Shown here: positions 41-35,159 of the stretch, piece after piece
How positions within the stretch are numbered: position 1 is the stretch's first letter
Layout: every line of letters starts with the position of its first letter
Source of the DNA: an uncultured Alphaproteobacteria bacterium
Lineage (GTDB): Bacteria; Pseudomonadota; Alphaproteobacteria; CAAHEQ01; UBA3637
Direction of reading: 5' to 3'
Length of the DNA: 42,873 bases
Assembly (NCBI GenBank): GCA_947629595.1
Contig: CANREI010000001.1
Span: 1-42,873, forward strand
Made by a program: the position numbers and the translations under genes
Notes under the pieces: model-generated
Databases searched by the model: none
Seen by the model: the letters and a program-made list of their open reading frames with translations, nothing else
Told to the model about the DNA's origin: nothing

Positions 41-196
41 AAACGTACGATTTTTGCAACACTTTTTTTTAAAATTTTGAAAAAATTTTTATTTTGGTTG
101 AAAACAATTGATTTTTCGACTGTTTTTGAGTGCTTGATTTTGGCATTTTGAAGGCAATTTTGACCCCCGAATCCGCGTTGCATTAAAGGTACGTTT
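41..196. promoter_or_regulatory. Candidate invertible DNA switch 1 (inverton) upstream of pilin-like lectin gene
   Basis: Arms AAACGTACGATTTTTGCAAC (41-60) and GTTGCATTAAAGGTACGTTT (177-196) are 16/20 reverse-complementary, with exact termini AAACGTAC and GCAAC. They bracket 116 bp of AT-rich DNA ending 37 nt before the ATG at 234. The same module recurs at 29106-29262 and 31446-31601. Confidence 0.6.
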
Positions 197-4729: not shown

Positions 4730-4798
4730 TTTTTTTACTCCGTTTTTCAAGTTGCAATTTATGTAAAATAATATATACTGTTTTTACAAGGATTGCAA

Positions 4799-5560
4799 AT
4801 GACAAATTCAATTTTATCCCTTTATCGGATATTTTTTACGGATGACAATCATCAGCTTTGGGCCGTTATGCGTGACGGACGGCCGGTTTTAATGAAAAGC
4901 ATACCGCCGTTTGCAACCTTTTCATCGGATCATACGGTTATTACCGGCGTTGAGTTAGACGGCGAACAAACGCACTTTTTGTGGACGCTTGCCAATTTTC
5001 AACAACAAAAATCTATGCAAATAATGACGCAATCGGGCTATTGTTACTATCCGGCGCTTTGGAATACGTCGCACGCGCAAATTGCCTTTTTGCGGGCCGA
5101 CTTGTTAAATCCGAAAGGAACGGCTGATATTTTCATTTATAAAAAAGCGCGAACAAAATTTCATTTAAACGATTCGTTTCCGGGGGCGTTATTACCTGTA
5201 TTTTTTGCTAAAAGCGGAGCGTTATATTATATTGATACGCAAAATCATTTTGCCAAACGCCTGATGAAAGAAAGCAGCGTTATTTTTGAAAACGTGACTT
5301 ATTTTGCTTTATCGCCCAATGAAACGGAATATGCCGTTTATACGAATGATATGGTTCATTGGATTGATTTTAAAATCGGACAATTGCGTCAATTTATTGC
5401 TTTTGATGTGACGGCCATCGGATTTAACGAAACAGGCAACAGTTTGTTTTTTGCAACCTGTAAAAGCGGTCGAACAAGTTTATATCAATATGATAAATTT
5501 TCGCAGGAAATCACGTTGGTTTTAAATCATCCGACCAAAATAACCGCCATATCGTTTTAA
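4799..5560 (+). CDS. Hypothetical protein (possibly beta-propeller-like)
   Basis: Long ORF divergent from the MoxR gene. AAGGA lies 6 nt before the ATG at 4799 (TTG at 4793 is an alternative). No recognisable motif. Confidence 0.6.
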   Translation: MTNSILSLYRIFFTDDNHQLWAVMRDGRPVLMKSIPPFATFSSDHTVITGVELDGEQTHFLWTLANFQQQKSMQIMTQSGYCYYPALWNTSHAQIAFLRADLLNPKGTADIFIYKKARTKFHLNDSFPGALLPVFFAKSGALYYIDTQNHFAKRLMKESSVIFENVTYFALSPNETEYAVYTNDMVHWIDFKIGQLRQFIAFDVTAIGFNETGNSLFFATCKSGRTSLYQYDKFSQEITLVLNHPTKITAISF

Positions 5561-21787: not shown

Positions 21788-24700
21788 ATGAATAACAAAT
21801 TAGCTGTTGCTGCTTTAATTTTTCCGTTAATGATGACAAGTACCGTTGCTTATTCGGCTGATACCATAAACACGTTTGATGATTTAAAAAAGGCGATTGA
21901 AGAAGAGAAAAAAAATGATATTCTGCTCGGCGCTGATATTTCGTTTTCGGAAAAGAAACAATTTACCGCTGCTGCTTTTGATTTAAAGAATGGTGACAAA
22001 ACAGAAGCTCATCTCACGATTGACGGCGATGGTCATACTCTTCGGGGTACTACATTCACTGCCACCAAAGGCAATTCAGATGCCTTTTTATTAGAAAGTG
22101 GTTCATTAACATTAAAAAACGTAACGGTTAAAGATTTTATTGGCAGTAGTTCAGCGCCATGGACCGGTGCTATCACGCTGCGTGGCGGAACATTAACTTT
22201 AACGGCGGAACAAGAAAAAAATGTTGTTTTTGAAAATAATAATGTGGAACGTCGCGGCGGGGGCGGAGATATTTACTTGGGAAACGATGCTAAACTAATC
22301 GTAAATGGCGACGGTGGTCAGGTTGCATTAAAAACGGGTGTATTCGGAAGCGGTACGATAACGCATCAAGGAAATTCATTGCTTGTTTTGGGTGGCACTA
22401 ATGGCGCTTTTACGGGCAGTTTTACCAATGAAGACGGCGATGTTGAAGTAACCGGAAACAGCACTTTGTTCGGCAGAGGTAATGAGTTTAAAAAAGGCAC
22501 GTTAAAATGGAATTCGAAGAGCGGTTTATCTTCGGGTTCTACTTTATCTCTTTCAAAAGGAACGGGGTTAATTGTGGGTGAAGATGAAAAGGTCAATGCC
22601 CGGTTAACGCTTAAAAAAGGGCAAACAAAATTGGAAAATGGTGTTTCTTTAACAACAAAGAACAACGGTGAATTGATTTTATCGGGTTGGACAGATCAAT
22701 TTAAAGAAAAAGTCAGCGGTAACGGCAAGTTGACTTTACAAAATACAAACCTTACCATTACCAATAATGAAATTGAAGAACATGATTTATTGCAAGTAAA
22801 GCTTGACGGGCAAAGTGCCGTTACGGGTGAAGATTTATCATTTGCTTCTTTAAGTAACGGTGGCACAGTAACGGCAACCGATGAATTAGATGTTCAAAAT
22901 CATGCCGATAACAGCGGTACCGTTTCGGGTAAAACTTTGAAAGTCGGTTCGCTGAATAATACGGGAAAGGTAACGGTTTCCGATGCCTTAACGGTGAGTG
23001 GCACAGGGCTTAGCGAATCCGAAAAAAGCGCTTTAATTAACGGTGTTCAAGCTGTTGCTACCGAAGCAGACGACGCCGAAGCGACAAAAGCTCAAATAAC
23101 TGCCGATACATTAACGGTAACGGGCGATGTTTCCAATAACGGCACAATTACGGTGACAAATGATGCAACGGTGCATGGAAATCTTGCCAATGAAAGCGGT
23201 ACATTCTCGGCAAAAGGCTTGACTGTTGACGGGAATATTACCAATAACGGCACCGTGACGGCGCAAGGGGCTCTTTCCGGTCAAAAATTAACGAATACGG
23301 GAACGGTTACCGCCGCTTCCGTTACGGTTTCCGATGCCGTTGAAAACAGCGGTACAATCACGGCAAGCGGTGAATTGAAGGCCGGGAGCGTGAAAAATGA
23401 AACACAAGGAAATATCACGTTTGCAGGCGGTACAATCGGCGGAACCGTTGAAAACGACGGCACAATCGAAAATTCGGGCAATTTAACAATTGCGGGTGCT
23501 GTTTCGGGAAAAGGCACGTTGAAGAATACGGGAACATTAACATTGAATGCCGACAGTCGTTCATTTACCGGAACATTTACGCAAACGGGCGAATCCAGCG
23601 CAACAACGGTTACAGGTGTGTTGGGCGGTACGAAAGATATTCAAAGCGGCTCGTTAACAATGTCTTCTTCCACACTTTATGACGGTCAAGTGAAATTGGG
23701 AAGCAATGCTCAACTTGATTTTACTTTACAAGCCATGGAAGATAAGGAACATCACAATGTTATCGGTAAAGACTCGTTAGCATTTACGGGAAGCGATGCG
23801 ACAGCCGCCTTTAAAGGTGTTGATAAATCGCACTTAACGTTGGCTGATGATGTGGAAAACTCAAAAGACAACAATATTTCTTTTGATAACACAACGCTGG
23901 GATTAAGCGGTACAACACATAATTATGATTATAAGTCGTTTGAATTAAAAAATTCCACGTTAAGCTTGGGTGACGAAAGCGGTGATGTGGAAGATTATAG
24001 TTTCAATAATTTCAAAACTTCCGGTTCGTCGGTTGATTTGAATTTGAAATTATCGGCAGAGGACAAATTAAGTTCCGATACGTTAACCTTTAAAGGTACC
24101 GGTGAAGGGACGTTAAACGTGGGTAAAGTTTATTTATCCGATGAATCGACAAGTAACGACGGCTCCTATACCGCAGATGTTGTTAAAAATGAAGGTGAGA
24201 ACAGCCATGTTCAATTGGGAATTGAGGGCGATGATGCCGATATACATGTTGCGTCAAGCAAATATACGTATGATTTGGAAGTGCAAGACGGAAAGAACGT
24301 TTCATTGACAAAAACAGGAGACACAACGAATGACACGTTGGCAGACTTAAACCACGATCAACCAGGAACAAGAGATTTTGAAGTTATTGACTCTTATACA
24401 ACGGATAAGGATCTTGGAAAGACTCAGAAAGGCACAATACTTGTTTACGGTGAAAGCAAAACAGGGGCAGAGGTGTTAGACGGCGGCGGACATTCTCTCT
24501 TTGATATTGAAAAAAATACAGAAGTTCAAGTCGGCCTTTCCGATTTAACCGTTCAAAATGCCGCAACAACCAATCCCAAAGGCGGATCGGTTGTGCATAA
24601 CGAAAGCGATTCCGCAAAAGTTGAACTGAAAAATGTGACGGTTAAAAATAATAAAGGTGCCGTTTATAATAAAGGCGGTCACTATGAGAGCGGTGACTAT

Positions 24701-27700
24701 GAAGATGCACAATTGCTTTCTATTTTAGATGCAACATTTTCAGGAAATGCTGCCGGTGTTGAAACTGTCGGTTCTGATACGCTCGGCAAACTCGGGGCTG
24801 CCGTTTATAATGACAATGATGTCGTTACCGGCGGTCGCGGTGTGATTTATATGGAAGATGTGAGCTTTGAAAAAGGAACAGAGGAAGCTCAAAACGATAT
24901 TTACAACGCCGGTGATATTTATGTTAACAGCGAAGATGTTAAAAATAGGTTCGGAAGTAAAATTACAAATGCCCAAACAGGGTCAATGGAATTTTACGGT
25001 CAAAATGAGGTTTCAGATATTGAAAATGATCATGGTCGGTTGAAATTTGCCGGAACAGATGTCCATATTGAAAATTTGAACACCAATGGCGGTACCGTTT
25101 TGCTTGAAAGTCAAAATGCAACGCTCGATTCGGTTTCAAATACCGGCGGTAACATTGTAGCTGATAAGGAAACAAACACCACTATTGATAATTTGGACTT
25201 ATTGACCGAAACCGAAACGACAGACAATGCAAAAGGAAAACTGACCGTTGAGGATGGTCAAGTGACTTTGAATACCGTGAGCGGTGATGCAGATACGACA
25301 ATTGAAAACAGTCAAGGTAATCTTTTCTTAAACGGCAGTGCTTTCGGATTTGCCGGCACGTTTACACAAGAATCCGGCACAACAACCGTTGCGGAAGGAG
25401 CCGGTTTCTTCGGTGGTATTTCTACCGTTTCGGGCGGCACGCTTTATTGGAAAACAATAAATGATTTGGGCAATGAAGCCTTGCTTACGGTTGAAGGTGA
25501 TTCGCAATTGGTTATCGGCAACTTTGAAAATGTCCAAAGTAGCGAAAGTCAAGCACGCAGCGCCGAACCGAATGTGACTTTAACGTTGCAAAACGGAAGC
25601 TCGGTTAATGCAAAAGTGGCTCTTGCCGACGGGGCTTCATTAAATGTGAATGAAGCCGGTTCCGCAACATTGAACGACGGTTCCTATTGGAGCGGTACGA
25701 TTACCGTGAACGGCGGTGATTTAACCGTGAACGCACAATCACCGATTCAAACCGCAACAGGCTCGTTGAAAGCTTCAAAAGGGGCCGTTACCTTAAACGA
25801 CGGTTCTTCCTTAAATGTGAATGCCGATAGTTTTATTGACGGAGCGGTTACATTTACGGGTGCAGAGAATACAAACTTGTTTGTTTCCGGCGGATCGGTC
25901 ACATTGAATGAGGGTGATACCGTTGAAGGGCACACGGCCTTATTTGACGGCGGTACGCTGACTTATGAAGGTACAAAAGTTGGTGACAATGCTTCCTTAA
26001 CGGCAACCGATGGTAATTTGAATATCGTTAAAGGATCTTCCTTAACGGTTGATGCCGAAAAGAATACCGTTGCCGATGCGGTTCATGTGACCATTGATAA
26101 AGAGTCAAGCGTGGCTGTTAAAAACGGCGGTTCGCTCAGCATTGACGACGCGGATTCTTGGGGCGGACAAATTACCCTTGATGACGGATCGTTAACTTAC
26201 GGTGCCAAAGACAACGGTATTTTAACGGCTAACACCGGTTCTTTGAATTTAATAAGCGGTAGTGAATTAACTTTAAACAGTGAAAGTGAAATTAAAGATG
26301 CCGTTTCCATAGATATTCAAAACGGTGCAACCGTTAAAGTTGACGGCGGTGCGTTAACGCTGAACAGCCATACCGAAGATAAATGGCACGGTTTGATTGA
26401 AAATAACGGCGGTACTCTTACCACTTTGGGTGTTGATACCACAACGGAAGGTTTTGCCGGACAGTTTAAGCAATCATCAGGCACGGCCCTTTTTGATGCC
26501 GCTTCGAATATTGTGATTGCCAATCCGAATACGGCCATTACCGGCGGTAATGTTTCCGTGTTGAGCGGATCGCATTTGTCGTTTGTTGACGGTGAAAATA
26601 TTCAATTGAATAACTTAACCGTGAGCGGAAACTCATCGTTCGGCATTAAGAACGAAAAGGGACAAACCGTTACGCTTGATTCCTTAACGATTGACGGCGA
26701 GAACAATTTTGATATGGATTTGCAAGGCGCTGCGGGAGACGGTGATTTGTTTGTCATTAAAGATTTGAAGGGCAGCGGTACAATTAACGTGTCCGACTTT
26801 GCGTTTGCGGGCAGTGTGCCGACAACACGGCAAGTGGATATGCAGCTGTTTCAGGTTGAAAACGGCGGGGAAGGTGTTTCCTTCAATTCAACAAGCGGTG
26901 CCGTTTCCACGCCGTTGGGTGATTACATTTTGCAATCCCTGGGGAACGGTTCTTATCGGGCAACGCTTGATAAGCTGAATCCCGATGTTTACAGAGGACA
27001 GGCTTCAACGTTGGCTATGTATAATAACCAGCTGGAAATCGATGATATGATTTTAAATCATGCCATTGTGGAAAACGGTTTCGGGCAACAAGCTGCCGCG
27101 CAATCAAAAGCCGACAGAACGCGTTTGAATGAGGACGGCGGTTTGTGGAGCAAAGCCTACTACCACGACGGCAATATGGATTTAAGCCGGAACTTGGATA
27201 TGGATACCACCGCTTACGGCTTGTTTATCGGTGCCGATTTGCCGATGACGGATTTAGGCTGCGGTTGGAATTTTGTTCCCACGGTCTTTGCGGGCTATAA
27301 CGGTTCCAAACAAGAATACAATGATATTGATATGAAACAAAACGGCGGCCAAGGCGGTGTGATGGGAACGTTTGCGAAAAATGATTTCGTTACGTCCGTT
27401 ATGGCTTATGCCGGCGGTTATTCCAACAAAATGAAAGGCCACGGCTATGAAGACAGCACGCATAACTGGTTTGTCGGTACGGCAGCCAAAGCGGCTTATA
27501 ACTGGCATGTTGCCGATCAGGTTGTTGTGCAACCGACAGCGTTTGTTTCTTACAACACATTCGGTAAGCAGGATTGGACAACACAATTCGGCAATATGAA
27601 TATGTCAACCGATACCTTAAACGGTTTCAGCGTGGCGCCGGGAATTAACGTTATTTACGCACCGAAAACATGGAGTACCTATGCTTCGTTGCAATATGTT

Positions 27701-27916
27701 TATAATGTGAATAATAAAGTCGGCGGCCGGGCCGGAACAGATGTTGATTTACCGAAATTGAAAACGGATAACGGATTTGTTCAATACGGTATCGGCGCAA
27801 CAAAAATGTTGGGTGATCAATGGAATACCGATTTCCGCGTTACGGCCGAAAGCGGCGGCAGAACGGGTGTCGGTTTCCGCTTGGGTATCGAATATTTGTT
27901 CGGTGTAACAAAGTAA
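21788..27916 (+). CDS. Large type Va autotransporter adhesin-like protein (2042 aa)
   Basis: Signal peptide (MNNKLAVAALIFPLMMTSTVAYSA). Long passenger of G-T-[LIV]-T beta-strand repeats (NNGTITVTND, NTGTVTAAS and similar). C-terminal beta-barrel of roughly 280 aa (GLWSKAYYHDG...GFRLGIEYLF). Confidence 0.9.
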   Translation: MNNKLAVAALIFPLMMTSTVAYSADTINTFDDLKKAIEEEKKNDILLGADISFSEKKQFTAAAFDLKNGDKTEAHLTIDGDGHTLRGTTFTATKGNSDAFLLESGSLTLKNVTVKDFIGSSSAPWTGAITLRGGTLTLTAEQEKNVVFENNNVERRGGGGDIYLGNDAKLIVNGDGGQVALKTGVFGSGTITHQGNSLLVLGGTNGAFTGSFTNEDGDVEVTGNSTLFGRGNEFKKGTLKWNSKSGLSSGSTLSLSKGTGLIVGEDEKVNARLTLKKGQTKLENGVSLTTKNNGELILSGWTDQFKEKVSGNGKLTLQNTNLTITNNEIEEHDLLQVKLDGQSAVTGEDLSFASLSNGGTVTATDELDVQNHADNSGTVSGKTLKVGSLNNTGKVTVSDALTVSGTGLSESEKSALINGVQAVATEADDAEATKAQITADTLTVTGDVSNNGTITVTNDATVHGNLANESGTFSAKGLTVDGNITNNGTVTAQGALSGQKLTNTGTVTAASVTVSDAVENSGTITASGELKAGSVKNETQGNITFAGGTIGGTVENDGTIENSGNLTIAGAVSGKGTLKNTGTLTLNADSRSFTGTFTQTGESSATTVTGVLGGTKDIQSGSLTMSSSTLYDGQVKLGSNAQLDFTLQAMEDKEHHNVIGKDSLAFTGSDATAAFKGVDKSHLTLADDVENSKDNNISFDNTTLGLSGTTHNYDYKSFELKNSTLSLGDESGDVEDYSFNNFKTSGSSVDLNLKLSAEDKLSSDTLTFKGTGEGTLNVGKVYLSDESTSNDGSYTADVVKNEGENSHVQLGIEGDDADIHVASSKYTYDLEVQDGKNVSLTKTGDTTNDTLADLNHDQPGTRDFEVIDSYTTDKDLGKTQKGTILVYGESKTGAEVLDGGGHSLFDIEKNTEVQVGLSDLTVQNAATTNPKGGSVVHNESDSAKVELKNVTVKNNKGAVYNKGGHYESGDYEDAQLLSILDATFSGNAAGVETVGSDTLGKLGAAVYNDNDVVTGGRGVIYMEDVSFEKGTEEAQNDIYNAGDIYVNSEDVKNRFGSKITNAQTGSMEFYGQNEVSDIENDHGRLKFAGTDVHIENLNTNGGTVLLESQNATLDSVSNTGGNIVADKETNTTIDNLDLLTETETTDNAKGKLTVEDGQVTLNTVSGDADTTIENSQGNLFLNGSAFGFAGTFTQESGTTTVAEGAGFFGGISTVSGGTLYWKTINDLGNEALLTVEGDSQLVIGNFENVQSSESQARSAEPNVTLTLQNGSSVNAKVALADGASLNVNEAGSATLNDGSYWSGTITVNGGDLTVNAQSPIQTATGSLKASKGAVTLNDGSSLNVNADSFIDGAVTFTGAENTNLFVSGGSVTLNEGDTVEGHTALFDGGTLTYEGTKVGDNASLTATDGNLNIVKGSSLTVDAEKNTVADAVHVTIDKESSVAVKNGGSLSIDDADSWGGQITLDDGSLTYGAKDNGILTANTGSLNLISGSELTLNSESEIKDAVSIDIQNGATVKVDGGALTLNSHTEDKWHGLIENNGGTLTTLGVDTTTEGFAGQFKQSSGTALFDAASNIVIANPNTAITGGNVSVLSGSHLSFVDGENIQLNNLTVSGNSSFGIKNEKGQTVTLDSLTIDGENNFDMDLQGAAGDGDLFVIKDLKGSGTINVSDFAFAGSVPTTRQVDMQLFQVENGGEGVSFNSTSGAVSTPLGDYILQSLGNGSYRATLDKLNPDVYRGQASTLAMYNNQLEIDDMILNHAIVENGFGQQAAAQSKADRTRLNEDGGLWSKAYYHDGNMDLSRNLDMDTTAYGLFIGADLPMTDLGCGWNFVPTVFAGYNGSKQEYNDIDMKQNGGQGGVMGTFAKNDFVTSVMAYAGGYSNKMKGHGYEDSTHNWFVGTAAKAAYNWHVADQVVVQPTAFVSYNTFGKQDWTTQFGNMNMSTDTLNGFSVAPGINVIYAPKTWSTYASLQYVYNVNNKVGGRAGTDVDLPKLKTDNGFVQYGIGATKMLGDQWNTDFRVTAESGGRTGVGFRLGIEYLFGVTK

Positions 27917-27972: not shown

Positions 27973-27992
27973 ATGGGCTGACTGTTGAAATT

Positions 27993-28004
27993 TAGCGTTC
28001 GCTA
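27993..28004. repeat. 12-bp palindrome TAGCG-TT-CGCTA (site A of a pair)
   Basis: Perfect half-site dyad around a central TT. The partner at 28136-28147 is identical except that the central dinucleotide is AA. Confidence 0.8.
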
Positions 28005-28135
28005 TTTTTCCATATTATACTATGTCTTTTTGGAAATGCAATCTTTTTTAAGACTTCCGTTTAAAAAAATAGTTTTTTGAACAGATTATTTCATCTTCCG
28101 AAAAACGGTTTTTTATACATTTTTTTGTTGGTATT

Positions 28136-28147
28136 TAGCGAACGCTA
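28136..28147. repeat. 12-bp palindrome TAGCG-AA-CGCTA (site B of a pair)
   Basis: See site A. Lies 70 nt upstream of the recombinase ATG. Confidence 0.8.
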
Positions 28148-28217
28148 TCTTTCAATATCATTTCAGAAAACTATATGACTTCTGTTTCATAAACAAGTTA
28201 AACTAGGAGTTCCAAAA

Positions 28218-28811
28218 ATGACAGTTTATGCTTATATTCGTGTTTCAACCGATCGCCAGAATAACGATAATCAGCGGTTTCAAATTATCAATTACTGCAA
28301 AGAAAAAAATTTAAACATTGATTTGTGGATTGAAGAAATCATTTCAACCGGGCAGGCTTTGAAAAAAAGAAAATTATCGCGTCTTTTAAAAAAAGTAAAG
28401 GAAAACGATATTTTAATAACCTGTGAAATATCCCGCTTGGGAAGAAATCTCTTTGAAGTCATGGAAATTTTATCAACGTGTATGAAAAAAGGGTGTCGGG
28501 TTTGGACCATTAAAGATTGTTATACGCTCGGAAATGATATTCAATCAAAAGTGTTGGCTTTTGCCTTTGCTTTGGCGGCAGAAATTGAAAAACAGCTGAT
28601 ATCGCAACGAACAAAACAATCTTTGGCGCGTCGCAAGGCGGAAGGAAAGCCGATCGGGCGCATGAAAGGGGCTAAAAATAAAACGCACAAATTGGACGGC
28701 AAAGAAGAACAAATTGAAGATTTGTTTAAAAAGGGTGTTCCGATTGCGCAAATTGCCCGTATGATGAAATGTCATCGCGACACGATTTCCCACTTTTTAA
28801 AACCCGTTTAA
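28218..28811 (+). CDS. Serine recombinase / DNA invertase, Mpi-family-like
   Basis: AGGAG RBS. N-terminal YAYIRVSTDRQ (catalytic Ser10), [31 protein letters not shown], and C-terminal HTH (GVPIAQIARMMKCHRDTISHFLK). Size is typical of small invertases at 197 aa. Confidence 0.85.
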   Translation: MTVYAYIRVSTDRQNNDNQRFQIINYCKEKNLNIDLWIEEIISTGQALKKRKLSRLLKKVKENDILITCEISRLGRNLFEVMEILSTCMKKGCRVWTIKDCYTLGNDIQSKVLAFAFALAAEIEKQLISQRTKQSLARRKAEGKPIGRMKGAKNKTHKLDGKEEQIEDLFKKGVPIAQIARMMKCHRDTISHFLKPV

Positions 28812-29025
28812 AGAAATACGGTTTGTTTTTTCAGGTTGTGCGGAAAAAAAATGAGGCTTTGCACCTAAAAACAAATAGAAAAGCTATCATTTCGGCACAC
28901 TCTTTTATTTTCGGCGGGAAGTGCTGTCCCGTGAAACGTGGGACAGCGCGGTGTGTCGAAAATAAGGCGATTCGGTGCAAAACAATAAGTTTGCTGTAAA
29001 CTTTTCCCTCTGTCGGCGGGTGTGG

Positions 29026-29062
29026 GGAGGCAAAATTTAAGCCGCTCCGCTATGGGTCGATA
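29026..29062. repeat. Left copy of a ~37-bp inverted repeat flanking the second pilin-like cassette
   Basis: The reverse complement (TATCGACCCATAGCGGAGCGGCTTAAATTTTGCCTCC) aligns by eye with 31282-31318 (TATCGAAATAGAGCGGTGCGGCTTTAATTTATGCCTC) at roughly 85 percent identity with small gaps. Confidence 0.55.
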
Positions 29063-29105
29063 GAGGAAAAAATTGGTGTTTTTTTTAAGAGCAGTTGCAC
29101 AAATT

Positions 29106-29262
29106 AAACGTACGTTTTTTGCAACACTTTTTTTTGATTTTTTCAAAAAAAATTTATTTGGAGGTGTTTTTAATGCAATATCAACGGGTTATAAAAAGCC
29201 TGTTTCACCAATTTTTGAGGGTATTTTTGCCCCCGAAACCGCGTTGCATTAAAGGTACGTTT
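29106..29262. promoter_or_regulatory. Candidate invertible DNA switch 2 (inverton)
   Basis: Arms AAACGTACGTTTTTTGCAAC (29106-29125) and GTTGCATTAAAGGTACGTTT (29243-29262) are 17/20 complementary. The last ~30 internal nt resemble switch 1. It ends 38 nt before the ATG at 29301 and lies 295 nt downstream of the recombinase gene. Confidence 0.6.
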
Positions 29263-29300: not shown

Positions 29301-29423
29301 ATGACAATGCAATTCAAAAAACAAGTTCAAAATCAAGCACAAGCGGTATATATGCAAAGCAACGAACCGCAAATTGCAGGCGGGGAAGCGGAAAAAAAAT
29401 GCAAATTCGGCAGGACAAAATAA
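29301..29423 (+). other. Out-of-frame 5' leader segment of the second pilin-like gene
   Basis: GGGAG RBS 7 nt before the ATG, as in gene 234. It encodes MTMQFKKQVQNQAQAVYMQSNEPQIAGGEA, homologous to residues 36-62 of the first paralog. It leaves the main frame at the A8 tract 29392-29399 and stops at 29423. Confidence 0.6.
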
Positions 29424-31222
29424 TTGGGAAAACACAAATTCGGCAAGATAAAATCATTGAAAATCAATCACAAAGCGGTAAAATGATGATTAAAAATACA
29501 CAGAACAAAAAAGAAAGCTCAAAACATAAATCAATGCTTTCAATTTACAAGAAAAATATCATTGAAACACACTCTCAAAGTGGCCGTTCCATGATTGAAA
29601 TGCTGGGTGTGTTGGCTATTATTGCCATTTTATCAATCGGAGGGATTGTGGGGTTTCGATTGGCAATGAATTACTATCGAGCATCACAAATTGCCCATGA
29701 AATGAATATGATGCGCACCGATGCGCAAATAAAAATTGCCCAAGGGACGGAAGAGTTAATGCTCGGAGAACCTTATGATCCTGTCAACGATTCCCTCGGA
29801 CATATTCAGTTTAATGATGCGTATCTTGTTGATTTTGATTGTATTTATATGAAAACGGAAATATCAGAACCCGAACCTGCTTTTTGTACCGGTGCCAATG
29901 CTTATTATATAGAATTGCAAAACATTCCCGAAGGTGTTTGTAAACCGCTGGCAAACTTAATTGATAAAATGGATAATGAAATTGCCTTTTACATTAACGG
30001 AAACTCTGTTGATGCGGAAGAGGGAGAAAAAGGCGTTTGCAATGCAGAATTCAATACATTAAGGGTCATCTTCGGTGCCGATTCGGATTCGAACGCCATT
30101 AAATGCGGTGGTGCCGATGACCCCGCTTGTCCAACAGAACTGCCTGTTTGCCTTAACCATATGTGTGTGGAATGCGAAGAAAGTAATGATTGCGGCGAGT
30201 TTGAAGTTTGTGATCGGGAAACGGGAAGATGTATCGATGATTGTACGAAAGGCGCATGTAACAGTGGTGTTTGTGTGGGCGGCGTTTGTAAAGAATGCAA
30301 AAACATGGAAGATTGCGACAACGGTTTAGCATGCATAGACAATCAATGTATGCGTTGCGAAAACGAATCGGATTGCGAAGAAAAACATTGCATAGAAGGT
30401 TCATGTGTTGACTGTACGGAACCGACACCGAAATATAACGCGACAGAAAACAGGTGCGTGGAATGTATAGATAGTGAAGATTGTGAAAATCCGAAACCAT
30501 ATTGTAATCCCACAACAAATACATGCGAACCGTGTGAAAATGATTTACAGTGCGATACAACGCAAAACGAACATTGCCAAGTTTCCACCGGATCGTGTAT
30601 TATATGTGATGTCTATACAGAAGTTTGGGATGAAGAGTTAAAAGATTGTCGTTTGGCAAAATCTTGTAAGGAATTAGATTGCCCGATAGATACATTCTGT
30701 TTAAGTGGCAAGTGTAATGCTCCATGTCCAACCGATGAGGTAATAACAATAGAAGAAGAAGTCTGTAATAGCTTTTTTTGTCGACCAACAAATATTGGTT
30801 TTGTGCAAGGGCAAGTAAATGGAAGAAGCTATTATGGAAACAGATATAGCCTAAACTGGTGGAGTTCTCAGCGATTTTGCCAAGCAGCAGCCCGCGAAGC
30901 AGGTGTAACAAGTGGTCGATTGGTGAGTTGGAGTGATATTAATTGGCAATGTTATAATGATGCTAACAAACCGGATCCAACAAACAAGAAAGATGGATAC
31001 TGCAAAGCAACAAACGATGATTCCGGTAGTGATAATGTGTCGAAAGCAATAACAGATTTGAGAAATATGTATCAATGTACTAGTCAATGTTTTCCATGGC
31101 TGCAAGAGGCATATAGTTCTTGTCGGGCGTATGATGTAAATCTTTTCGACGGATATGTGCGACCCTATTCTTTTGGCGGTAACGGCAGTTATGCTGATTA
31201 TGCTTTATGTGTAGGTAATTGA
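29399..31222 (+). CDS. Modular type IV pilin-like protein paralog with expanded Cys-rich repeats and C-type-lectin-like C-terminus
   Basis: G62|RSMIE-MLGVLAIIAILSIGGIVGF prepilin motif. At least 4-5 repeats of C-x2-C-x3-5-DC-x5-8-C-x5-8-C (for example CVECEESNDCGEFEVCDRETGRCIDDC). C-terminal WWSSQRFC...C...CRAYDV..FDGYVR...YALC. The functional start is uncertain (29399, 29483 or 29534, or 29301 after a +1 slip). Confidence 0.75.
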   Translation: MQIRQDKIIGKTQIRQDKIIENQSQSGKMMIKNTQNKKESSKHKSMLSIYKKNIIETHSQSGRSMIEMLGVLAIIAILSIGGIVGFRLAMNYYRASQIAHEMNMMRTDAQIKIAQGTEELMLGEPYDPVNDSLGHIQFNDAYLVDFDCIYMKTEISEPEPAFCTGANAYYIELQNIPEGVCKPLANLIDKMDNEIAFYINGNSVDAEEGEKGVCNAEFNTLRVIFGADSDSNAIKCGGADDPACPTELPVCLNHMCVECEESNDCGEFEVCDRETGRCIDDCTKGACNSGVCVGGVCKECKNMEDCDNGLACIDNQCMRCENESDCEEKHCIEGSCVDCTEPTPKYNATENRCVECIDSEDCENPKPYCNPTTNTCEPCENDLQCDTTQNEHCQVSTGSCIICDVYTEVWDEELKDCRLAKSCKELDCPIDTFCLSGKCNAPCPTDEVITIEEEVCNSFFCRPTNIGFVQGQVNGRSYYGNRYSLNWWSSQRFCQAAAREAGVTSGRLVSWSDINWQCYNDANKPDPTNKKDGYCKATNDDSGSDNVSKAITDLRNMYQCTSQCFPWLQEAYSSCRAYDVNLFDGYVRPYSFGGNGSYADYALCVGN

Positions 31223-31445: not shown

Positions 31446-31601
31446 AAACGTACGATTTTTGCAACACTTTTTTTTAAAATTTTGAAAAAATTTTTTACTC
31501 AAGTGTAATTTTTTGATTTTTAAAAATTTTTTTTACTTTTTCTTTCAGTGGTTGCAAGGGTCTGAAAAATGCAAAAAAAGCGTTGCATTAAAGGTACGTT
31601 T
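31446..31601. promoter_or_regulatory. Candidate invertible DNA switch 3 (inverton) upstream of the GIY-YIG gene pair
   Basis: Arms AAACGTACGATTTTTGCAAC (31446-31465) and GTTGCATTAAAGGTACGTTT (31582-31601). The first ~35 internal nt are identical to switch 1. Contains a plus-strand TTGAAA-16-TGTAAT promoter-like pair. Ends 56 nt before the ATG at 31658. Confidence 0.6.
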
Positions 31602-31657
31602 TATTGTAGTATACCAAAGTATATTTTTTAAATTTAATTTATAATCAGGAGGAAAAA

Positions 31658-32074
31658 ATGAGTGAAAATTTGAGCATAACAACAAGTTTGGCAGATATTT
31701 TTCAATTGCCCGAACCGATAGACCAATATACTTTGCATTTTGCAACGGGAGCATGGCGTGCCTTTACGGAAACACCGGAAATATGGATTAAAAACTGGAA
31801 TTCCAATGTGAATGCAGGCAGAACAAAAAAAGCTTTTACCCGAAAATATATTATTTCTTTTGTCAATTACGATCATAATGAATGGTTATTCGGCGGTATT
31901 ATTCGCTTATTAAACAATCAGGGGGAAGAAGAGCCGATTTTAACTGATTTATATGCTGATCTTGTGGGCAGACTCGTTGTAACTTTTCAGAAAGGGAGAA
32001 CTCCTTACTTACAATTAAACCACCAGCGTTTTAAAGAAATTAAAGTTAAACAAATTTTGGATCAACCCAAGTAG
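31658..32074 (+). CDS. Stand-alone copy of the N-terminal domain of the downstream GIY-YIG protein
   Basis: AGGAGG RBS. The 138-aa product is about 88 percent identical by eye to residues 1-142 of ORF 32104..32943 and lacks the nuclease domain. Confidence 0.7.
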   Translation: MSENLSITTSLADIFQLPEPIDQYTLHFATGAWRAFTETPEIWIKNWNSNVNAGRTKKAFTRKYIISFVNYDHNEWLFGGIIRLLNNQGEEEPILTDLYADLVGRLVVTFQKGRTPYLQLNHQRFKEIKVKQILDQPK

Positions 32075-32103
32075 ATGTTTTAATTTATAATCAGGAGAAA
32101 GAA

Positions 32104-32943
32104 ATGAGTGAAAATTTGAGCTTAACAACAAGTTTGGCAGATATTTTTCAATTGCCCGAACCGATAGATAAATATTATTTGCACTTTGCAACGGGAGCAT
32201 GGCATGCCTTTACGGAAACACCGGAAATATGGATTAAAAACTGGAATTCCAATGTAAATGCAGACAAATCGAAAAGATCGAAAAAAGCTTTTACCCGAAA
32301 ATACATTATTTCTTTTGTCAATTACGATTCTCATGAATGGTTATTCGGCGGTATTATTCGCTTATTAAATGATCAGGGAGAAGAAGAGCCGATTTTATTA
32401 ACTGATTTATATGGTGATCTTGTGGGCAGATTGGTTGTAACTTTTAAGAAATGGAGAACTTATCACCTTAAATTAAACCACCAGCGTTTTAAAGAAATTA
32501 AAGTCAAACAAATTTTGGATCAACCGATTCTTTCAAAACAATTTAGCTCTTACGAAGATGTGCATTTAACTTTTAATGAATTGAAAAACATTGTTGACAG
32601 ACAAATAACGCAATGGAAAGAAAAACTTTCTTTTGTTCAAGGAATTTATTTAATTTTTGATAAAGAAAGTCGAAAAATATATATCGGCAAGGCAGACGGT
32701 TCTTGCGGTATTTGGGAACGTTGGAGCTGCTATGCGCATTCGGACGGAACGGGATATAATGATAAATTGGTAGAATTGATAAAAACAAACGGTGCGGAAT
32801 ATGCTTCAAATTTTGAATTTACTTTATTGGAATATGCTTATTTGGGGCAGATAAAGGATAAAAATTATTTCAATGAGCGGGAAAGTTATTGGAAAAAGGT
32901 TTTCCATTCACGCATTGAAAGTGTCGGGTTGAACGCAAATTAA
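32104..32943 (+). CDS. GIY-YIG nuclease family protein with uncharacterised ~145-aa N-terminal domain
   Basis: GIY (180-182), 10 residues, then YIG (193-195). Followed by IWERW (conserved Arg), NERESYWKKVF (conserved Glu) and a terminal GLNAN. Confidence 0.8.
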   Translation: MSENLSLTTSLADIFQLPEPIDKYYLHFATGAWHAFTETPEIWIKNWNSNVNADKSKRSKKAFTRKYIISFVNYDSHEWLFGGIIRLLNDQGEEEPILLTDLYGDLVGRLVVTFKKWRTYHLKLNHQRFKEIKVKQILDQPILSKQFSSYEDVHLTFNELKNIVDRQITQWKEKLSFVQGIYLIFDKESRKIYIGKADGSCGIWERWSCYAHSDGTGYNDKLVELIKTNGAEYASNFEFTLLEYAYLGQIKDKNYFNERESYWKKVFHSRIESVGLNAN

Positions 32944-33084
32944 CAGCTGCTGACAACCCATGATTCAAATTTATGAAAACAATATATAACAAATGACAGA
33001 AGCAATGCCGGCTGGAATAAGGGCAACAAATTTATCAGTTGTTTAAGCTGAAAGTGAATCAATAATTAAGCGGACATAAAAAAA

Positions 33085-33378
33085 CGGGGTATCCTGTTGC
33101 TGGGAACCCCGCAAACCCCACCGCTCTGCTCATTTGAGAACGGAATTGATGGTCATTTGGCTACATTAAGCAGCTTTGGCGACCGGAGCAAAATTATCAT
33201 TTGCGTTTATATTTTCAGCCCGATAACGGTGGTACAATACCGGATACAAGAAAAAGCCTTTATTATGCGTGTCGATCCTGTTTCACCCCCATTGGTGGAG
33301 GTGTCGGGTACCGCCCCCGAGTCCACAGACATCTATTCTGCTTTTCGTTTAGCATCATAGTCAAAATTGCTTTGACAA
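33085..33378 (-). ncRNA. ssrA: Two-piece (circularly permuted) tmRNA gene
   Basis: The minus strand reads ...GGACTCGGGGGCGGTACCCGACACCTCCACCA-AT-GGGGGTGAAACAGGATCGAC... The 5' GGGGGTG pairs with CACCTCC, giving the G3:U pair followed by ACCA. The tag frame GCA AAT GAT AAT TTT GCT CCG GTC GCC AAA GCT GCT TAA encodes ANDNFAPVAKAA (33204..33166). TTGATT-17-TATACT promoter at 33412..33384. The 5' and 3' ends are approximate. Confidence 0.8.
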
Positions 33379-33466
33379 AGAAAAGTATAACCCGTTTTTG
33401 AGAAAAAATCAAGATTTTTTATGATAACTTTGTTCGATGCCTGCCGTTACACAAAACAGACCCCCT

Positions 33467-33503
33467 AAAAAAACCTCCCGCAAAACGCAAGGAGGCTTTT
33501 TTT
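33467..33503 (-). terminator. Probable terminator after tuf
   Basis: CCTCC / GGAGG stem with a 12-nt loop, flanked by A7 and T7 runs. The stem is weak. Confidence 0.45.
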
Positions 33504-33519
33504 AGTAAAACGTATGTGC

Positions 33520-34710
33520 TTATTTGTCGATTTTAGCAACGACACCGGCGCCAACCGTGTGGCCGCCTTCACGAATAGCAAAACGTAAACCTTCGTCCAT
33601 GGCAACCGGCACAATCAATGTGACTTTTAATTTCACATTATCACCCGGCATAACCATTTCAACACCGGCCGGTAATTCAATTGTACCGGTCACGTCTGTT
33701 GTACGGAAATAGAATTGCGGACGATAGTTTGCAAAGAACGGTGTATGACGACCGCCTTCTTCTTTGCTCAACACATAAACTTCGGATTCGAACGTTGTGT
33801 GCGGGGTGATTGTTCCCGGAGCAGCCAAAACCTGACCGCGTTCCACTTCGTCCCGTTTTGTACCGCGGAGCAAGACACCGATGTTATCGCCGGCTTCACC
33901 TTGATCCAACAATTTACGGAACATTTCAATGCCCGTGCAGGTTGTTTTTGTTGTCGGACGTAAACCAACGATTTCAACTTCTTCGCCCACTTTTAACGTA
34001 CCGCGTTCCACACGACCCGTCACAACCGTACCACGGCCGGAAATGGAGAACACGTCTTCAATCGGCATTAAGAACGGTTTGTCTTTCGGACGTTCCGGTT
34101 GCGGAATGTAATTATCAACGGCATCCATTAAAGCAATAATGGAATCTTTGCCCATTTTCGGATCGCCGCCGTCCAAAGCAACTTTGGCAGAACCGCGAAT
34201 GATAGGAATATCATCACCCGGGAATTGATAGGAAGACAGTAATTCACGAACTTCCATTTCCACCAAGTCTAATAATTCGGCATCGTCAACCATATCAACT
34301 TTGTTCATATAAACAACAATGGCAGGCACACCGACCTGACGAGCCAACAAAATGTGTTCACGTGTTTGCGGCATCGGACCGTCGGCAGCGGAAACCACCA
34401 AAATAGCACCGTCCATTTGAGCGGCACCCGTAATCATGTTTTTAACATAGTCGGCGTGGCCCGGGCAGTCAACGTGCGCATAGTGCCGTTTGGCTGTTTC
34501 ATATTCAACGTGTGACGTTGAAATGGTAATACCGCGAGCGCGTTCTTCCGGAGCTTTATCGATGTTTGCATAATCAACGAATGCAGCGCCGCCTTGTTCA
34601 GCCAAAACTTTTGTAATGGCTGCCGTTAATGTTGTTTTACCGTGGTCAACGTGGCCGATTGTGCCGATGTTGCAGTGCGGTTTTGTTCTTTCAAATTTTT
34701 CTTTACTCAT
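33520..34710 (-). CDS. tuf: Elongation factor Tu
   Basis: [22 protein letters not shown] and full-length identity to EF-Tu. Confidence 0.99.
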
Positions 34711-34772
34711 TATTTAATTTCCTTAACTGATCAGTGTTAAAAAATAAATCCTCTTGCGGAGGACCCCTTAAT

Positions 34773-34846
<74 letters not shown>

Positions 34847-34857
34847 AATCGGGTCTT

Positions 34858-34943
34858 TGGTGGAAGGGGAAAGATTCGAACTTTCGTAGACATAAGTCGG
34901 CAGATTTACAGTCTGCTGCCATTAACCACTCGGCCACCCTTCC
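34858..34943 (-). tRNA. tRNA-Tyr (anticodon GUA)
   Basis: Reverse complement GGAAGGGTGGCCGAGTGGTTAATGGCAGCAGACTGTAAATCTGCC... has a long variable arm, GGTTCGAATC T-loop and an encoded CCA. Confidence 0.92.
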
Positions 34944-35159
34944 GGCCCAATAGACACTCTTGCTTTACACAAGAGGAATACATTATGCCGTTAATTCAAA
35001 AAATTGTCAAGCACTTTTTTCGAAAAATAATTTAATTTGACGGTTTATTAACTTTTTTAACAAGTAATTCAATGAATTATATTATAAAATCAAAGAAGGC
35101 GCTTAAAAAACGTATTCTTTTGAATAAAATGCCGGAACAAGTGTTTTTGCGGCGTTTTT

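What the first reader, a model, noticed from the sequence alone, without database searches (positions are those of the whole stretch)
31446..31601. Switch 3 sits in front of a GIY-YIG nuclease gene pair, suggesting a phase-variable nuclease or defence-like module
The third IR module precedes not a surface protein but two tandem genes, 31658..32074 and 32104..32943. The second ends in a clear GIY-YIG nuclease domain. Stochastic ON/OFF control is well known for restriction-modification and surface genes. A GIY-YIG nuclease with an unknown N-terminal domain under an Mpi-type switch would be an unusual cargo. It hints at a costly function, such as anti-phage or anti-plasmid activity or self-DNA-toxic activity, that is bet-hedged. 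This switch also contains the best internal plus-strand promoter-like pair (TTGAAA-16-TGTAAT, roughly 31477-31504), pointing toward the genes.
Basis: partly seen in the sequence, partly recalled or inferred. Interest (0 to 1): 0.75.

Follow-up and report, generated by a model that had tools for sequence, protein, structure and literature searches.

The report
Invertible switch before Uzume defence nuclease
A short flippable DNA segment, one of dozens served by a single Mpi-family invertase in an uncultured gut alphaproteobacterium, sits in front of an Uzume-type anti-phage nuclease gene and a truncated copy of it, so this immune gene is probably switched on and off at random, although flipping at this site was not observed.

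Summary
Exact inverted repeats AAACGTAC-N6-TGCAAC lie at 31446-31465 and 31582-31601. They are identical to two other switches in the window. An Mpi-family serine invertase gene lies at 28218-28811.

The cargo is not an unknown nuclease. The 279-aa protein matches PADLOC UzuA (Uzume single-gene anti-phage system, E 2e-44, near full length). Its C-terminal GIY-YIG domain resembles I-TevI. The 138-aa upstream ORF is an 87%-identical tandem duplicate of its N-terminal domain only.

The host is an alphaproteobacterium, not a Bacteroides. A related rabbit-gut MAG carries at least 58 such switches, mostly before pilin-like genes. Switch 3 is the only one seen with a defence gene.

Homologues elsewhere have ordinary sigma-70 promoters, often with an XRE regulator, and no switch.

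Inversion at switch 3 was not seen: five of five assemblies share one orientation. The family pattern instead suggests a fixed -10 outside the repeat and a swappable -35/A-tract inside. That would make the common orientation OFF, but switch 3 has A-tracts at both ends, so its state is unresolved.

Verdict: a plausible phase-variable defence gene, a new variant of a known kind, of moderate interest.

The parts
28218..28811 (+). Mpi-family serine invertase gene (197 aa), the likely enzyme for all three switches in the window
   Evidence: Pfam Resolvase E 5.8e-31 plus a C-terminal HTH. NCBIfam NF009949 'master DNA invertase Mpi family' scores 283 bits against a cut-off of 272, covering model positions 2-194 of 203.
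31446..31465 (+). Switch 3 left inverted repeat (IRL), AAACGTACGATTTTTGCAAC. The core AAACGTACG is quasi-palindromic and is the likely crossover region.
   Evidence: Exact pattern match. Identical to IRL of switch 1 and to the commonest IRL in the family.
31466..31581 (.). Invertible interior of switch 3 (116 bp). The left 'T-end', ACTTTTTTTTAAAATTTTGAAAAAATTTTT, is conserved in the family. The right half is unusual for the family.
   Evidence: Alignment of the three window switches. Consensus of 86 switches. Median identity of the other switches to switch 3 is 66% for the T-half and 41% for the other half.
31482..31509 (+).
   Evidence: Read from the sequence. Not listed by the consensus scan. 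The hexamers are not conserved in the family.
31573..31579 (+). A7 tract at the gene-proximal end of the interior, just upstream of TTGCAT. It is found only at this locus among the 88 switches scored.
   Evidence: The upstream 9-mer is GCAAAAAAA here, whereas 72 of 88 switches have only 2-3 A at these positions.
31582..31601 (-). Switch 3 right inverted repeat (IRR), read on the + strand as GTTGCATTAAAGGTACGTTT. It contains the -35-like TTGCAT at 31583-31588.
   Evidence: Exact pattern match. Identical to IRR of switches 1 and 2.
31607..31612 (+). Candidate fixed -10 (TAGTAT), 18 bp after TTGCAT and outside the invertible DNA
   Evidence: A TAnnnT hexamer lies 16-18 bp after TTGCA on the gene side in 65 of 88 switches. 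On the other side it occurs in only 8 of 88, and at least seven of those eight have a gene beside that end. Its function is inferred.
31633..31657 (+). Leader with ribosome-binding site (AGGAGG at 31647-31652). It is duplicated at 32079-32103 in front of the second gene.
   Evidence: Direct repeats D1/D2. The same leader lies beside a degenerate IRR in a related MAG that lacks uzuA.
31658..32074 (+). 138-aa ORF: a stand-alone copy of the UzuA N-terminal domain, made by tandem duplication, with no nuclease domain
   Evidence: 87% identical to residues 1-141 of the 279-aa protein. The 446-bp tandem unit is about 91% identical in DNA. dN/dS is 0.47 and the indels are in frame. The ORF is intact in four other assemblies. 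The model has pLDDT 83.
32104..32943 (+). uzuA homologue (279 aa). The N-terminal domain (about residues 1-142) has no recognised fold. The C-terminal GIY-YIG nuclease domain covers about residues 178-279 (32635-32943).
   Evidence: PADLOC UzuA E 2.3e-44. phrog_26160 E 1.1e-34. Fold and sequence matches to I-TevI. Catalytic residues are conserved.
33083..33416 (-). Context: alphaproteobacterial permuted tmRNA gene. Its 3' end faces the end of uzuA across 139 bp. The stretch next to it differs between close relatives.
   Evidence: Rfam RF01849 at 222.5 bits and ARAGORN. Homology to the related MAG locus L081 (91.7% over this stretch; about 95% over 32983-34965) starts at 32983, just after the uzuA stop.
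29106..29262 (.). Sister switch 2, in front of a prepilin-type Cys-rich protein gene (29399-31222)
   Evidence: A weak prepilin N-terminal motif and the family-wide motif GRSM(I/V)EMLGVLAII.
41..196 (.). Sister switch 1, in front of gene 234-1574

Best explanation
Switch 3 is a target site of a master serine invertase of the Mpi family (28218-28811). In this lineage of uncultured gut Alphaproteobacteria that enzyme serves dozens of near-identical 150-bp switches.

Switch 3 lies directly upstream of an Uzume-type (UzuA) single-gene anti-phage nuclease and a tandem, nuclease-less copy of its N-terminal domain. The invertase most likely recombines at the ACGT|ACG core of the two repeats and flips the 116-bp interior together with the inner half-sites.

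I infer that the -10 element (TAGTAT, 31607-31612) stays fixed beside the gene. What changes is the -35-like hexamer (TTGCAT or TTGCAA) and the sequence just upstream of it. In the family, the flipped state brings an A8 tract, which resembles an UP element, next to the -35. So the flipped state is probably ON and the common state OFF or low.

The outcome is stochastic, heritable ON/OFF or high/low expression of a potentially self-toxic DNA nuclease. Here the switch takes the place of the XRE-type repressor that accompanies several homologues.

Shown: the repeats, the invertase family, the UzuA identity, the intact catalytic residues, the duplicate, the size of the family and its cargo.

Inferred: that switch 3 actually flips, which state is ON, the promoter anatomy, and the anti-phage function of this particular homologue.
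For: - Exact shared repeats at three sites in the window.
- The invertase scores above the curated cut-off for the Mpi family.
- UzuA match at E 2.3e-44 over nearly the whole model. The N-only ORF also hits the N-part of the model, E 0.0014.
- The GIY-YIG fold and catalytic residues are present.
- Uzume is listed as a single-gene defence system with GIY-YIG homology and unknown mechanism (10.1101/2024.10.26.620412; PMC12926258).
- Close homologues (51-71% identical) have conserved sigma-70 promoters and no repeats. Those of P0007 and P0004 have divergent XRE regulators, and P0004 lies in an integrase/primase island. So the switch is a lineage-specific replacement of the usual control.
- uzuA is absent from the same tmRNA-adjacent site in a relative about 95% identical in the flanking DNA, and its G+C is 33% against about 45% in the flanks. 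This fits an accessory gene.
- The family is seen in both orientations relative to paralogous genes: L087, and L023/L093 against L048/L053. L061 lies between two divergent pilin genes.
- The -10-like hexamer tracks the side that carries a gene.
- The spacer G(A/T)TTTT stays with the T-end wherever that end lies, which places the crossover at the core.
Against: - No inverted copy of switch 3 was found. The window and L001, L002, L095 and L096 all share one orientation, but these are low-coverage consensus assemblies.
- No orthologous locus was caught in both orientations.
- Neither the locus nor the switch family occurs in the JGI metagenome collection.
- Switch 3 has A-tracts at both ends, so the UP-element logic does not clearly separate its two states.
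- TATAAT at 31640-31645 and the conserved leader could give orientation-independent transcription.
- The -10-like hexamer overlaps an outward extension of the repeat symmetry, so its conservation could reflect recombinase binding rather than a promoter.
- The defence function rests on homology to a family whose tested members I could not read about at source.
Confidence: 0.6

Rival explanations
1. The invertible segment carries its own promoter (TTGAAA-16-TGTAAT, 31482-31509) reading toward the genes, so the orientation in the window is ON and flipping turns the pair OFF.
For: The hexamers exist on the + strand with 16-bp spacing. In Bacteroides fragilis the Mpi-inverted segments carry the promoter, which is active only in the ON orientation (PMC13139388). 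All five assemblies show this orientation, as expected if ON were favoured for a useful defence gene.
Against: The -10 has G at the key second position and fails the scan. At the same offsets, 58 of 91 family members have TTCAAA, only 6 have TTGAAA, and the -10 position is CGGAAT, GTAAAT and so on. No conserved strong internal promoter exists in either direction. 75 pilin-type genes have this orientation and one has the opposite. If this orientation were ON, dozens of variable surface genes would all be ON together.
Confidence: 0.15
2. The switch is real or a relic, but uzuA expression is essentially independent of orientation. The cassette landed behind an existing switch next to tmRNA and is transcribed from the leader, the IRR promoter, or read-through from the upstream gene.
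For: A related MAG keeps the same leader and ribosome-binding site behind a degenerate IRR with no IRL. Switch 3 has A-tracts at both ends. TATAAT lies at 31640-31645. Only a weak terminator-like site lies between the upstream gene and the switch. The orientation is the same in five of five assemblies.
Against: Both repeats are perfect copies of the family's commonest arms, with no sign of decay. The invertase gene is 2.6 kb away. Homologues normally sit under dedicated control by an XRE regulator, which argues that unregulated expression is avoided.
Confidence: 0.2
3. The pair is a selfish free-standing GIY-YIG endonuclease (homing-type or toxin), not a defence gene.
For: The nuclease domain is closest to I-TevI. 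There are partial hits to TIGR01453 group I intron endonuclease (E 2e-6) and to homing-endonuclease PHROGs. Homologues lie in mobile contexts.
Against: The domain order is reversed relative to I-TevI, and no NUMOD or IENR1 DNA-binding modules were found. TIGR01453 scores 27.8 bits against a 56 cut-off and matches only model positions 3-83 of 215. No intron or intein surrounds the gene, and Rfam finds only tmRNA and tRNAs in the window. The whole protein, including the N-domain, matches the UzuA defence model far better.
Confidence: 0.05

Closest known systems
Mpi-controlled invertible promoters of Bacteroides fragilis (capsular polysaccharide loci and others)
   Same: A small serine invertase of the same NCBIfam family. 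One enzyme serves many distant sites with the same repeats, as Mpi inverts 13 regions (PMC4747536). The segments are short, intergenic, and lie just upstream of surface-structure genes. The repeat core AAACGTACG(T/A) fits the Mpi core consensus ARACGTWCGT as I recall it (from memory, not checked at source).
   Different: The host is an alphaproteobacterium. The regulon is far larger, at least 58 sites in one MAG. The cargo is mostly prepilin-type proteins and, here, a defence nuclease. The segment is shorter (arms 136 bp apart). The promoter seems split between fixed and invertible DNA rather than lying wholly inside (inferred). Inversion was not demonstrated here.
Uzume (UzuA) single-gene anti-phage system (Millman et al. 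2022, as cited in PMC12926258)
   Same: Near full-length HMM match, about 270-280 aa, an N-terminal domain plus a C-terminal GIY-YIG domain, and no conserved partner gene. The family is large, with 1951 cluster representatives at E <= 1e-3.
   Different: It is preceded by an invertible switch rather than an ordinary promoter or an XRE regulator. It is accompanied by an N-domain-only tandem paralogue. Activity of this member is untested, and the mechanism of the family is listed as unknown.
I-TevI and other GIY-YIG homing endonucleases
   Same: The catalytic fold and motif set: GIY, YIG, Arg, Tyr/His, Glu, Asn.
   Different: The catalytic domain is C-terminal, not N-terminal. The other domain is unrelated. 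There is no intron or intein context.
CMoRE, a single-protein GIY-YIG type IV restriction enzyme (PMC12923530)
   Same: A single-gene defence protein that joins a GIY-YIG nuclease to a second, sensing domain.
   Different: CMoRE has the nuclease at the N-terminus and a C-terminal domain that senses modified cytosine. The UzuA N-domain has no detectable fold relative, so a modification-sensing role is only a guess.
Phase-variable defence in gut bacteria (for example the inverting type I R-M specificity genes of B. fragilis, PMC7641763)
   Same: Site-specific inversion creates population heterogeneity in a defence function (abstract).
   Different: There, inversions reshuffle specificity genes. 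Here, an upstream regulatory segment would switch a whole single-gene nuclease system on or off.

Membership tests
Mpi-type invertible switch | A serine recombinase of the Mpi family encoded in the genome | tested here: met
   NF009949 at 283 bits against a cut-off of 272, nearly full length. Resolvase domain plus HTH.
Mpi-type invertible switch | The same inverted repeats at several distant loci (global control by one enzyme) | tested here: met
   Three exact pairs in the window, up to 31 kb apart. At least 58 distinct switch ends in one related MAG.
Mpi-type invertible switch | Repeat core matching the Mpi consensus ARACGTWCGT | tested here: inconclusive
   IRL of switch 2 is AAACGTACGT (10 of 10). 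IRL of switch 3 is AAACGTACGA (9 of 10). IRR is AAACGTACCT (9 of 10). The consensus is from my memory, because the source paper was not held.
Mpi-type invertible switch | The segment is found in both orientations | tested here: not met
   Switch 3 has one orientation in five of five assemblies, and no orthologous locus was caught in both states. Only indirect family-level support exists: paralogous genes lie beside either end. Raw reads were not available.
Mpi-type invertible switch | A promoter inside the invertible segment drives the downstream gene in one orientation | tested here: inconclusive
   No conserved internal sigma-70-like promoter. A conserved -10-like hexamer lies outside the repeat on the gene side. 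No transcript data.
Uzume (UzuA) | Full-length sequence match to the UzuA profile | tested here: met
   PDLC03973 E 2.3e-44, 150 bits, residues 48-279 against model positions 40-278 of 278. Homologues P0007 and P0008 match likewise.
Uzume (UzuA) | GIY-YIG nuclease domain with catalytic residues | tested here: met
   GIY-YIG homology of Uzume is stated in 10.1101/2024.10.26.620412.
Uzume (UzuA) | Acts alone (single-gene system) | tested here: inconclusive
   No partner gene is conserved across homologue contexts. Here, though, an N-domain paralogue is co-transcribed in appearance.
Uzume (UzuA) | Protects against phage | not testable with these tools
   Needs plaque assays.
GIY-YIG homing endonuclease (I-TevI type) | N-terminal catalytic domain joined to C-terminal DNA-binding modules; curated family score reached | tested here: not met
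   The catalytic domain is C-terminal. TIGR01453 scores 27.8 bits against a 56 cut-off and matches only model positions 3-83 of 215.
GIY-YIG homing endonuclease (I-TevI type) | Located in a group I intron or intein, or free-standing in a phage genome | tested here: not met
   It is intergenic in a chromosome among housekeeping genes. Rfam finds no intron.
GIY-YIG type II restriction-modification (Eco29kI type) | An adjacent DNA methyltransferase | tested here: not met
   The neighbours are a pilin-like gene and tmRNA. The only methyltransferase-type domains found in the window are SpoU, TP_methylase/RsmI and Methyltransf_4, several kb away; by family name I take them to act on RNA.
Terminator-type switch (C. 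difficile cwpV/RecV type) | The orientation decides whether an intrinsic terminator forms in the leader | tested here: not met
   No terminator-like site lies in 31446-31657 in the present orientation. The flipped state was not folded.

The most novel reading that the evidence does not exclude
A split-promoter inverton. In this alphaproteobacterial lineage the -10 stays fixed beside each gene, and the invertase swaps the -35 hexamer and an UP-element-like A-tract in or out. One master invertase applies this to 58 or more loci. The device has been extended from surface proteins to an intracellular immune nuclease. The nuclease-less N-domain paralogue of that nuclease would act as a co-expressed decoy or inhibitor that limits self-damage.
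Probability: 0.25. Interest if true: 0.75.

Novelty: new variant of a known kind. Interest (0 to 1): 0.58.

Why it matters
Anti-phage systems are usually thought of as constitutive or induced by infection. Direct on/off switching of a single-gene nuclease system by promoter inversion would show that bacteria hedge the cost of innate immunity in the same way they vary their surface.

The locus also points to a very large, undescribed inverton regulon outside the Bacteroidota. It contains a natural comparison: the same gene family under an XRE repressor in some genomes and under an invertible switch in another. That comparison could be used to ask why Uzume needs tight control.

Uzume's mechanism is listed as unknown. 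The N-domain-only paralogue offers a handle on what that domain does.

Tried and rejected
- A protein-pattern scan of genome contigs with the UzuA alignment found no confirmed relative. The patterns were too specific to the closest homologues.
- Two metagenome-contig scans found nothing. One used the fixed right junction of switch 3, the other the family T-end pattern. These organisms appear to be absent from that collection.
- Exact-protein look-ups gave only five low-coverage contigs of this locus, all in one orientation.
- A search for orthologous loci in opposite orientations among the 79 fetched loci found none. Only paralogue-level cases turned up.
- Foldseek searches with the N-domain model (pLDDT 83) against PDB and BFVD gave no significant match. 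The best was E 0.017, probability 0.2, TM 0.25. I reject the weak Brix/Imp4 and YTH hits as noise.
- The Millman preprint held in the library does not contain the word Uzume, and the Mpi paper PMC193581 is not held. Statements about the tested Uzume system and about the Mpi repeat consensus therefore rest on secondary citations or on memory.
- Library searches for an inverton controlling Uzume or another single-gene nuclease defence found none.
- I considered a terminator-type switch and an R-M system. Neither fits: there is no terminator and no DNA methyltransferase.
- The dN/dS of the duplicate (0.47) is too intermediate to decide between a functional gene and a decaying copy.

Full report
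**1. The observation**

The stretch 31446-31601 is bounded by AAACGTACGATTTTTGCAAC on the + strand and AAACGTACCTTTAATGCAAC on the - strand. The extended arms are 33 nt long and 82% complementary.

The pattern AAACGTAC-N6-TGCAAC has six perfect matches in the window, forming three convergent pairs: 41/177, 29106/29243 and 31446/31582. An exact match to 14 fixed bases is expected about 3e-4 times in 2 x 42.9 kb (my arithmetic). So the repeats are not chance.

The three switches align over both arms and over about 35 nt next to the left arm, ACTTTTTTTT(A/G)A..TTTT(G/C)AAAAAA...

Its G at -10 position 2 keeps it out of the consensus scan.

**2. The enzyme and the host**

The 197-aa ORF at 28218-28811 has a resolvase domain and a C-terminal HTH. 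It exceeds the curated cut-off of NCBIfam NF009949, 'master DNA invertase Mpi family', with 283 bits against 272.

The window is chromosomal. It carries FtsH, TilS, UvrA, AlaRS, RecA, QueH, EF-Tu and RsmI. It also carries an alphaproteobacterial permuted tmRNA at 33083-33416 (RF01849, 222 bits).

It is about 95-96% identical to contigs of rabbit-gut MAGs labelled 'uncultured Alphaproteobacteria'. So the label 'Mpi-type' is right for the recombinase family, but the host is not a Bacteroides.

**3. The switch family**

I scanned the species-representative genomes for the left arm plus the first interior bases. One MAG alone has at least 58 distinct switch ends.

Some 94 complete switches have arms 131-134 bp apart. 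I call the A/T-tract end the 'T-end' and the other end the 'G-end'. The consensus of 86 switches shows an almost invariant T-end and a mostly G+C-richer G-end..CCCnGAAtccGC. It then runs GTTGCATTAAAGGTACGT-TTAaTTTATgCTATT, a GGGAG ribosome-binding site, and ATG.

Cargo:
- 75 switches have a gene with a prepilin-type N-terminus (GRSMVEMLGVLAII) beside the G-end. This is the orientation of all three window switches.
- One switch (L087) has such a gene beside the T-end only.
- One switch (L061) lies between two divergent genes of this type.
- A second gene family, with a long signal peptide, lies beside the T-end in L023 and L093 and beside the G-end in L048 and L053, all within one MAG.

The family is therefore seen in both orientations relative to paralogous genes, as expected for invertible DNA. 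No single orthologous locus was caught in both states.

**4. Where the promoter is (inference)**

At the same offsets, 58 of 91 switches have TTCAAA and the -10 position varies. No strong internal sigma-70-like promoter is conserved in either direction.

Instead, a TAnnnT hexamer lies 16-18 bp beyond TTGCA on the gene side in 65 of 88 switches: TATGCT 45 times and TATACT 16 times. On the other side it occurs in only 8 of 88. At least seven of those eight (L023, L026, L061, L072, L087, L089, L093) have a sizeable gene beside the T-end; at the eighth, L051, only a short ORF cut off by the locus end lies there.

The 9 bp that would lie just upstream of the -35 hold 7-8 A at the T-end in 86 of 88 switches, but only 2-3 A at the G-end in 72 of 88. 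AAAAAAAAG matches the proximal UP-element consensus AAAAAARNR as I recall it.

The spacer G(A/T)TTTT stays with the T-end whether that end is next to the gene or away from it. This places the crossover at the quasi-palindromic ACGT|ACG core, so the TTGCA(A/T) hexamer moves with the interior.

My reading is a split promoter. The -10 is fixed. The -35 and the upstream A-tract are swapped by inversion. The common orientation is then OFF or low. That also fits the expectation that most of some 60 variable surface genes are silent at any one time.

One caveat: the outward flanks of both arms share TTAnTTnATGC. Part of this conservation could therefore be recombinase binding rather than a promoter.

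**5. Switch 3 in particular**

Its arms are the commonest variants in the family. Its T-half is typical (median identity of the other switches to it 66%). Its G-half is unusual (median identity 41%).

Uniquely among the 88 switches scored, it has an A7 tract (31573-31579) directly upstream of TTGCAT (31583-31588). An 18-bp spacer and TAGTAT (31607-31612) follow. So both orientations would put an A-tract upstream of the core promoter, and the ON/OFF assignment for this switch is open.

The window and four other assemblies (L001, L002, L095, L096; 2-3x coverage) all show the same orientation. Inversion at this site is therefore not demonstrated.

**6. The cargo**

The 279-aa protein matches the PADLOC profile of UzuA, the single protein of the Uzume anti-phage system. 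The match has E 2.3e-44 and covers residues 48-279 against model positions 40-278 of 278. The protein also matches phrog_26160.

Its C-terminal 100 residues are a GIY-YIG domain:
- Pfam scores it below threshold.
- A profile hits I-TevI at E 0.0016 and UvrC at 0.015.
- The AlphaFold model (pLDDT 70) superposes on the I-TevI catalytic domain with probability 1.0.
- Y182, Y193, R206, Y210, E260 and N277 are conserved.

An exhaustive profile search finds 1951 cluster representatives at E <= 1e-3, and the best-scoring full-length hits are about 270-290 aa.

Reviews list Uzume (Millman et al. 2022) as a defence system of unknown mechanism (PMC12926258) with GIY-YIG homology (10.1101/2024.10.26.620412).

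The N-terminal domain models well on its own (pLDDT 83, pTM 0.80) but has no significant structural relative in PDB or BFVD. Its role as sensor, DNA binder or oligomerisation module remains a guess.

**7. The 'pair'**

The 138-aa ORF is 87% identical to residues 1-141 of UzuA. It arose by tandem duplication of a 446-bp unit that includes 25 nt of leader and the ribosome-binding site.

It lacks the nuclease domain and is intact in all five assemblies. Its indels are in frame, and dN/dS against its parent is 0.47. It may be a functional N-domain-only protein, for example a decoy or inhibitor, or a slowly decaying copy. The data do not decide.

**8. Comparison with homologues**

- P0007 (51% identical, found in many assemblies) sits between housekeeping genes. 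It has a divergent XRE-type HTH gene, a TTGACA-17-TAGAAT promoter with a palindromic operator, and a 64-aa ORF. It has no repeats.
- P0004 lies in an integrase/primase island, again with an XRE gene.
- P0003 lies next to a tRNA gene, and P0002 lies between secE-nusG and a pilin gene.
- P0002, P0003 and P0004 all have a conserved TTGACA-17-TA(T/C)ACT promoter and no repeats.

At the same tmRNA-adjacent site, a relative about 95% identical in the flanking DNA has only a degenerate right arm, the same leader and a 26-codon ORF. The uzuA region has 33% G+C against about 45% in the flanks.

So uzuA is an accessory gene that, in this lineage only, has come under the resident inverton system.

**9. 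Rivals**

- A homing endonuclease is unlikely. The domain order is reversed, the family score is far below the cut-off, and there is no intron or intein.
- An R-M enzyme is unlikely because there is no DNA methyltransferase nearby.
- A terminator-type switch is unsupported.
- The serious rival is that expression does not depend on orientation. This rests on the leader promoter, the A-tracts at both ends, and the constant orientation across assemblies.

**10. Verdict**

The interpretation as a bet-hedged defence gene is plausible but unproven. The proposed promoter is probably wrong.

It combines two known kinds, a master-invertase switch and a catalogued defence gene, in a new host, with a possibly different promoter arrangement. 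I found no report of this combination in the library. The larger surprise is the size of the switch regulon in these uncultured Alphaproteobacteria.

Noticed in passing
L016-L094 (related MAGs); window 41-196 and 29106-29262: A very large inverton regulon in uncultured rabbit-gut Alphaproteobacteria. One MAG has at least 58 distinct switch ends, and the scan was truncated. 75 of about 94 complete switches precede genes with a prepilin-type N-terminus (GRSMVEMLGVLAII). Many of those proteins are Cys-rich or Thr/Pro-rich and up to 1180 aa long.
   Followed up: partly
L061 1487-1638: One switch lies between two divergent, near-identical pilin-type genes. Each gene has TTGCA(A/T)-17-TATACT beside it, which looks like a toggle that would express one gene or the other.
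   Followed up: partly
window 27983-28161: Upstream of the invertase gene are two 36-nt copies (81% identical) containing TTTAGCG(TT/AA)CGCTAT. They also form a 20-nt inverted repeat (90% complementary) with 131 nt between the arms. This is either a second kind of invertible segment or a pair of operator sites controlling the invertase. The motif occurs nowhere else in the window.
   Followed up: partly
L004-L011, about 4430-5000: The P0007 homologue of UzuA is preceded by a divergent XRE HTH gene, a TTGACA-17-TAGAAT promoter with the palindrome ATCCCAAATTGGGAT, and a 64-aa ORF made of two internal repeats (..YIYNETGMQTGVVF.. and ..YIYDETGLQTGVVY). That ORF may be a partner or regulator of UzuA in that lineage.
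   Followed up: no
window 32437-32469 (UzuA residues about 112-122) and 31991-32020: A short patch of the N-domain differs sharply between otherwise near-identical copies: KKWRTYHLKLN in the window's UzuA, KKGRRSYFKLN in L096, and QKGRTPYLQLN in the 138-aa paralogue. This may reflect gene conversion between the tandem copies or a loop that determines specificity.
   Followed up: no
L081 5025-5175 against window 31587-31671 and 32983 onward: A related MAG has, next to the 3' end of tmRNA, a degenerate right arm, the same leader and ribosome-binding site, and a 26-codon ORF in place of the uzuA pair. The tmRNA-adjacent site is a variable spot.
   Followed up: partly
L095 position 1: An independent assembly contig begins exactly inside the left arm of switch 2 (GTACGTTTTTTGCAAC...). 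This fits an assembly break at the repeat, caused either by repeat copy number or by mixed orientations.
   Followed up: no
T-end flanks of many switches in L017-L094; window 28812-29105: About 260-330 nt upstream of many switches is itself conserved between loci (80-92% identity). In the window this stretch holds a G+C-rich hairpin (GCTGTCCCGTGAAACGTGGGACAGC). It may be a conserved RNA or a regulatory element belonging to the switch cassette.
   Followed up: no
window 21788-27916: A 2042-aa ORF with a signal-peptide-like start has no Pfam match at E <= 0.01. It is preceded by an A/T-rich region without the switch repeats.
   Followed up: no
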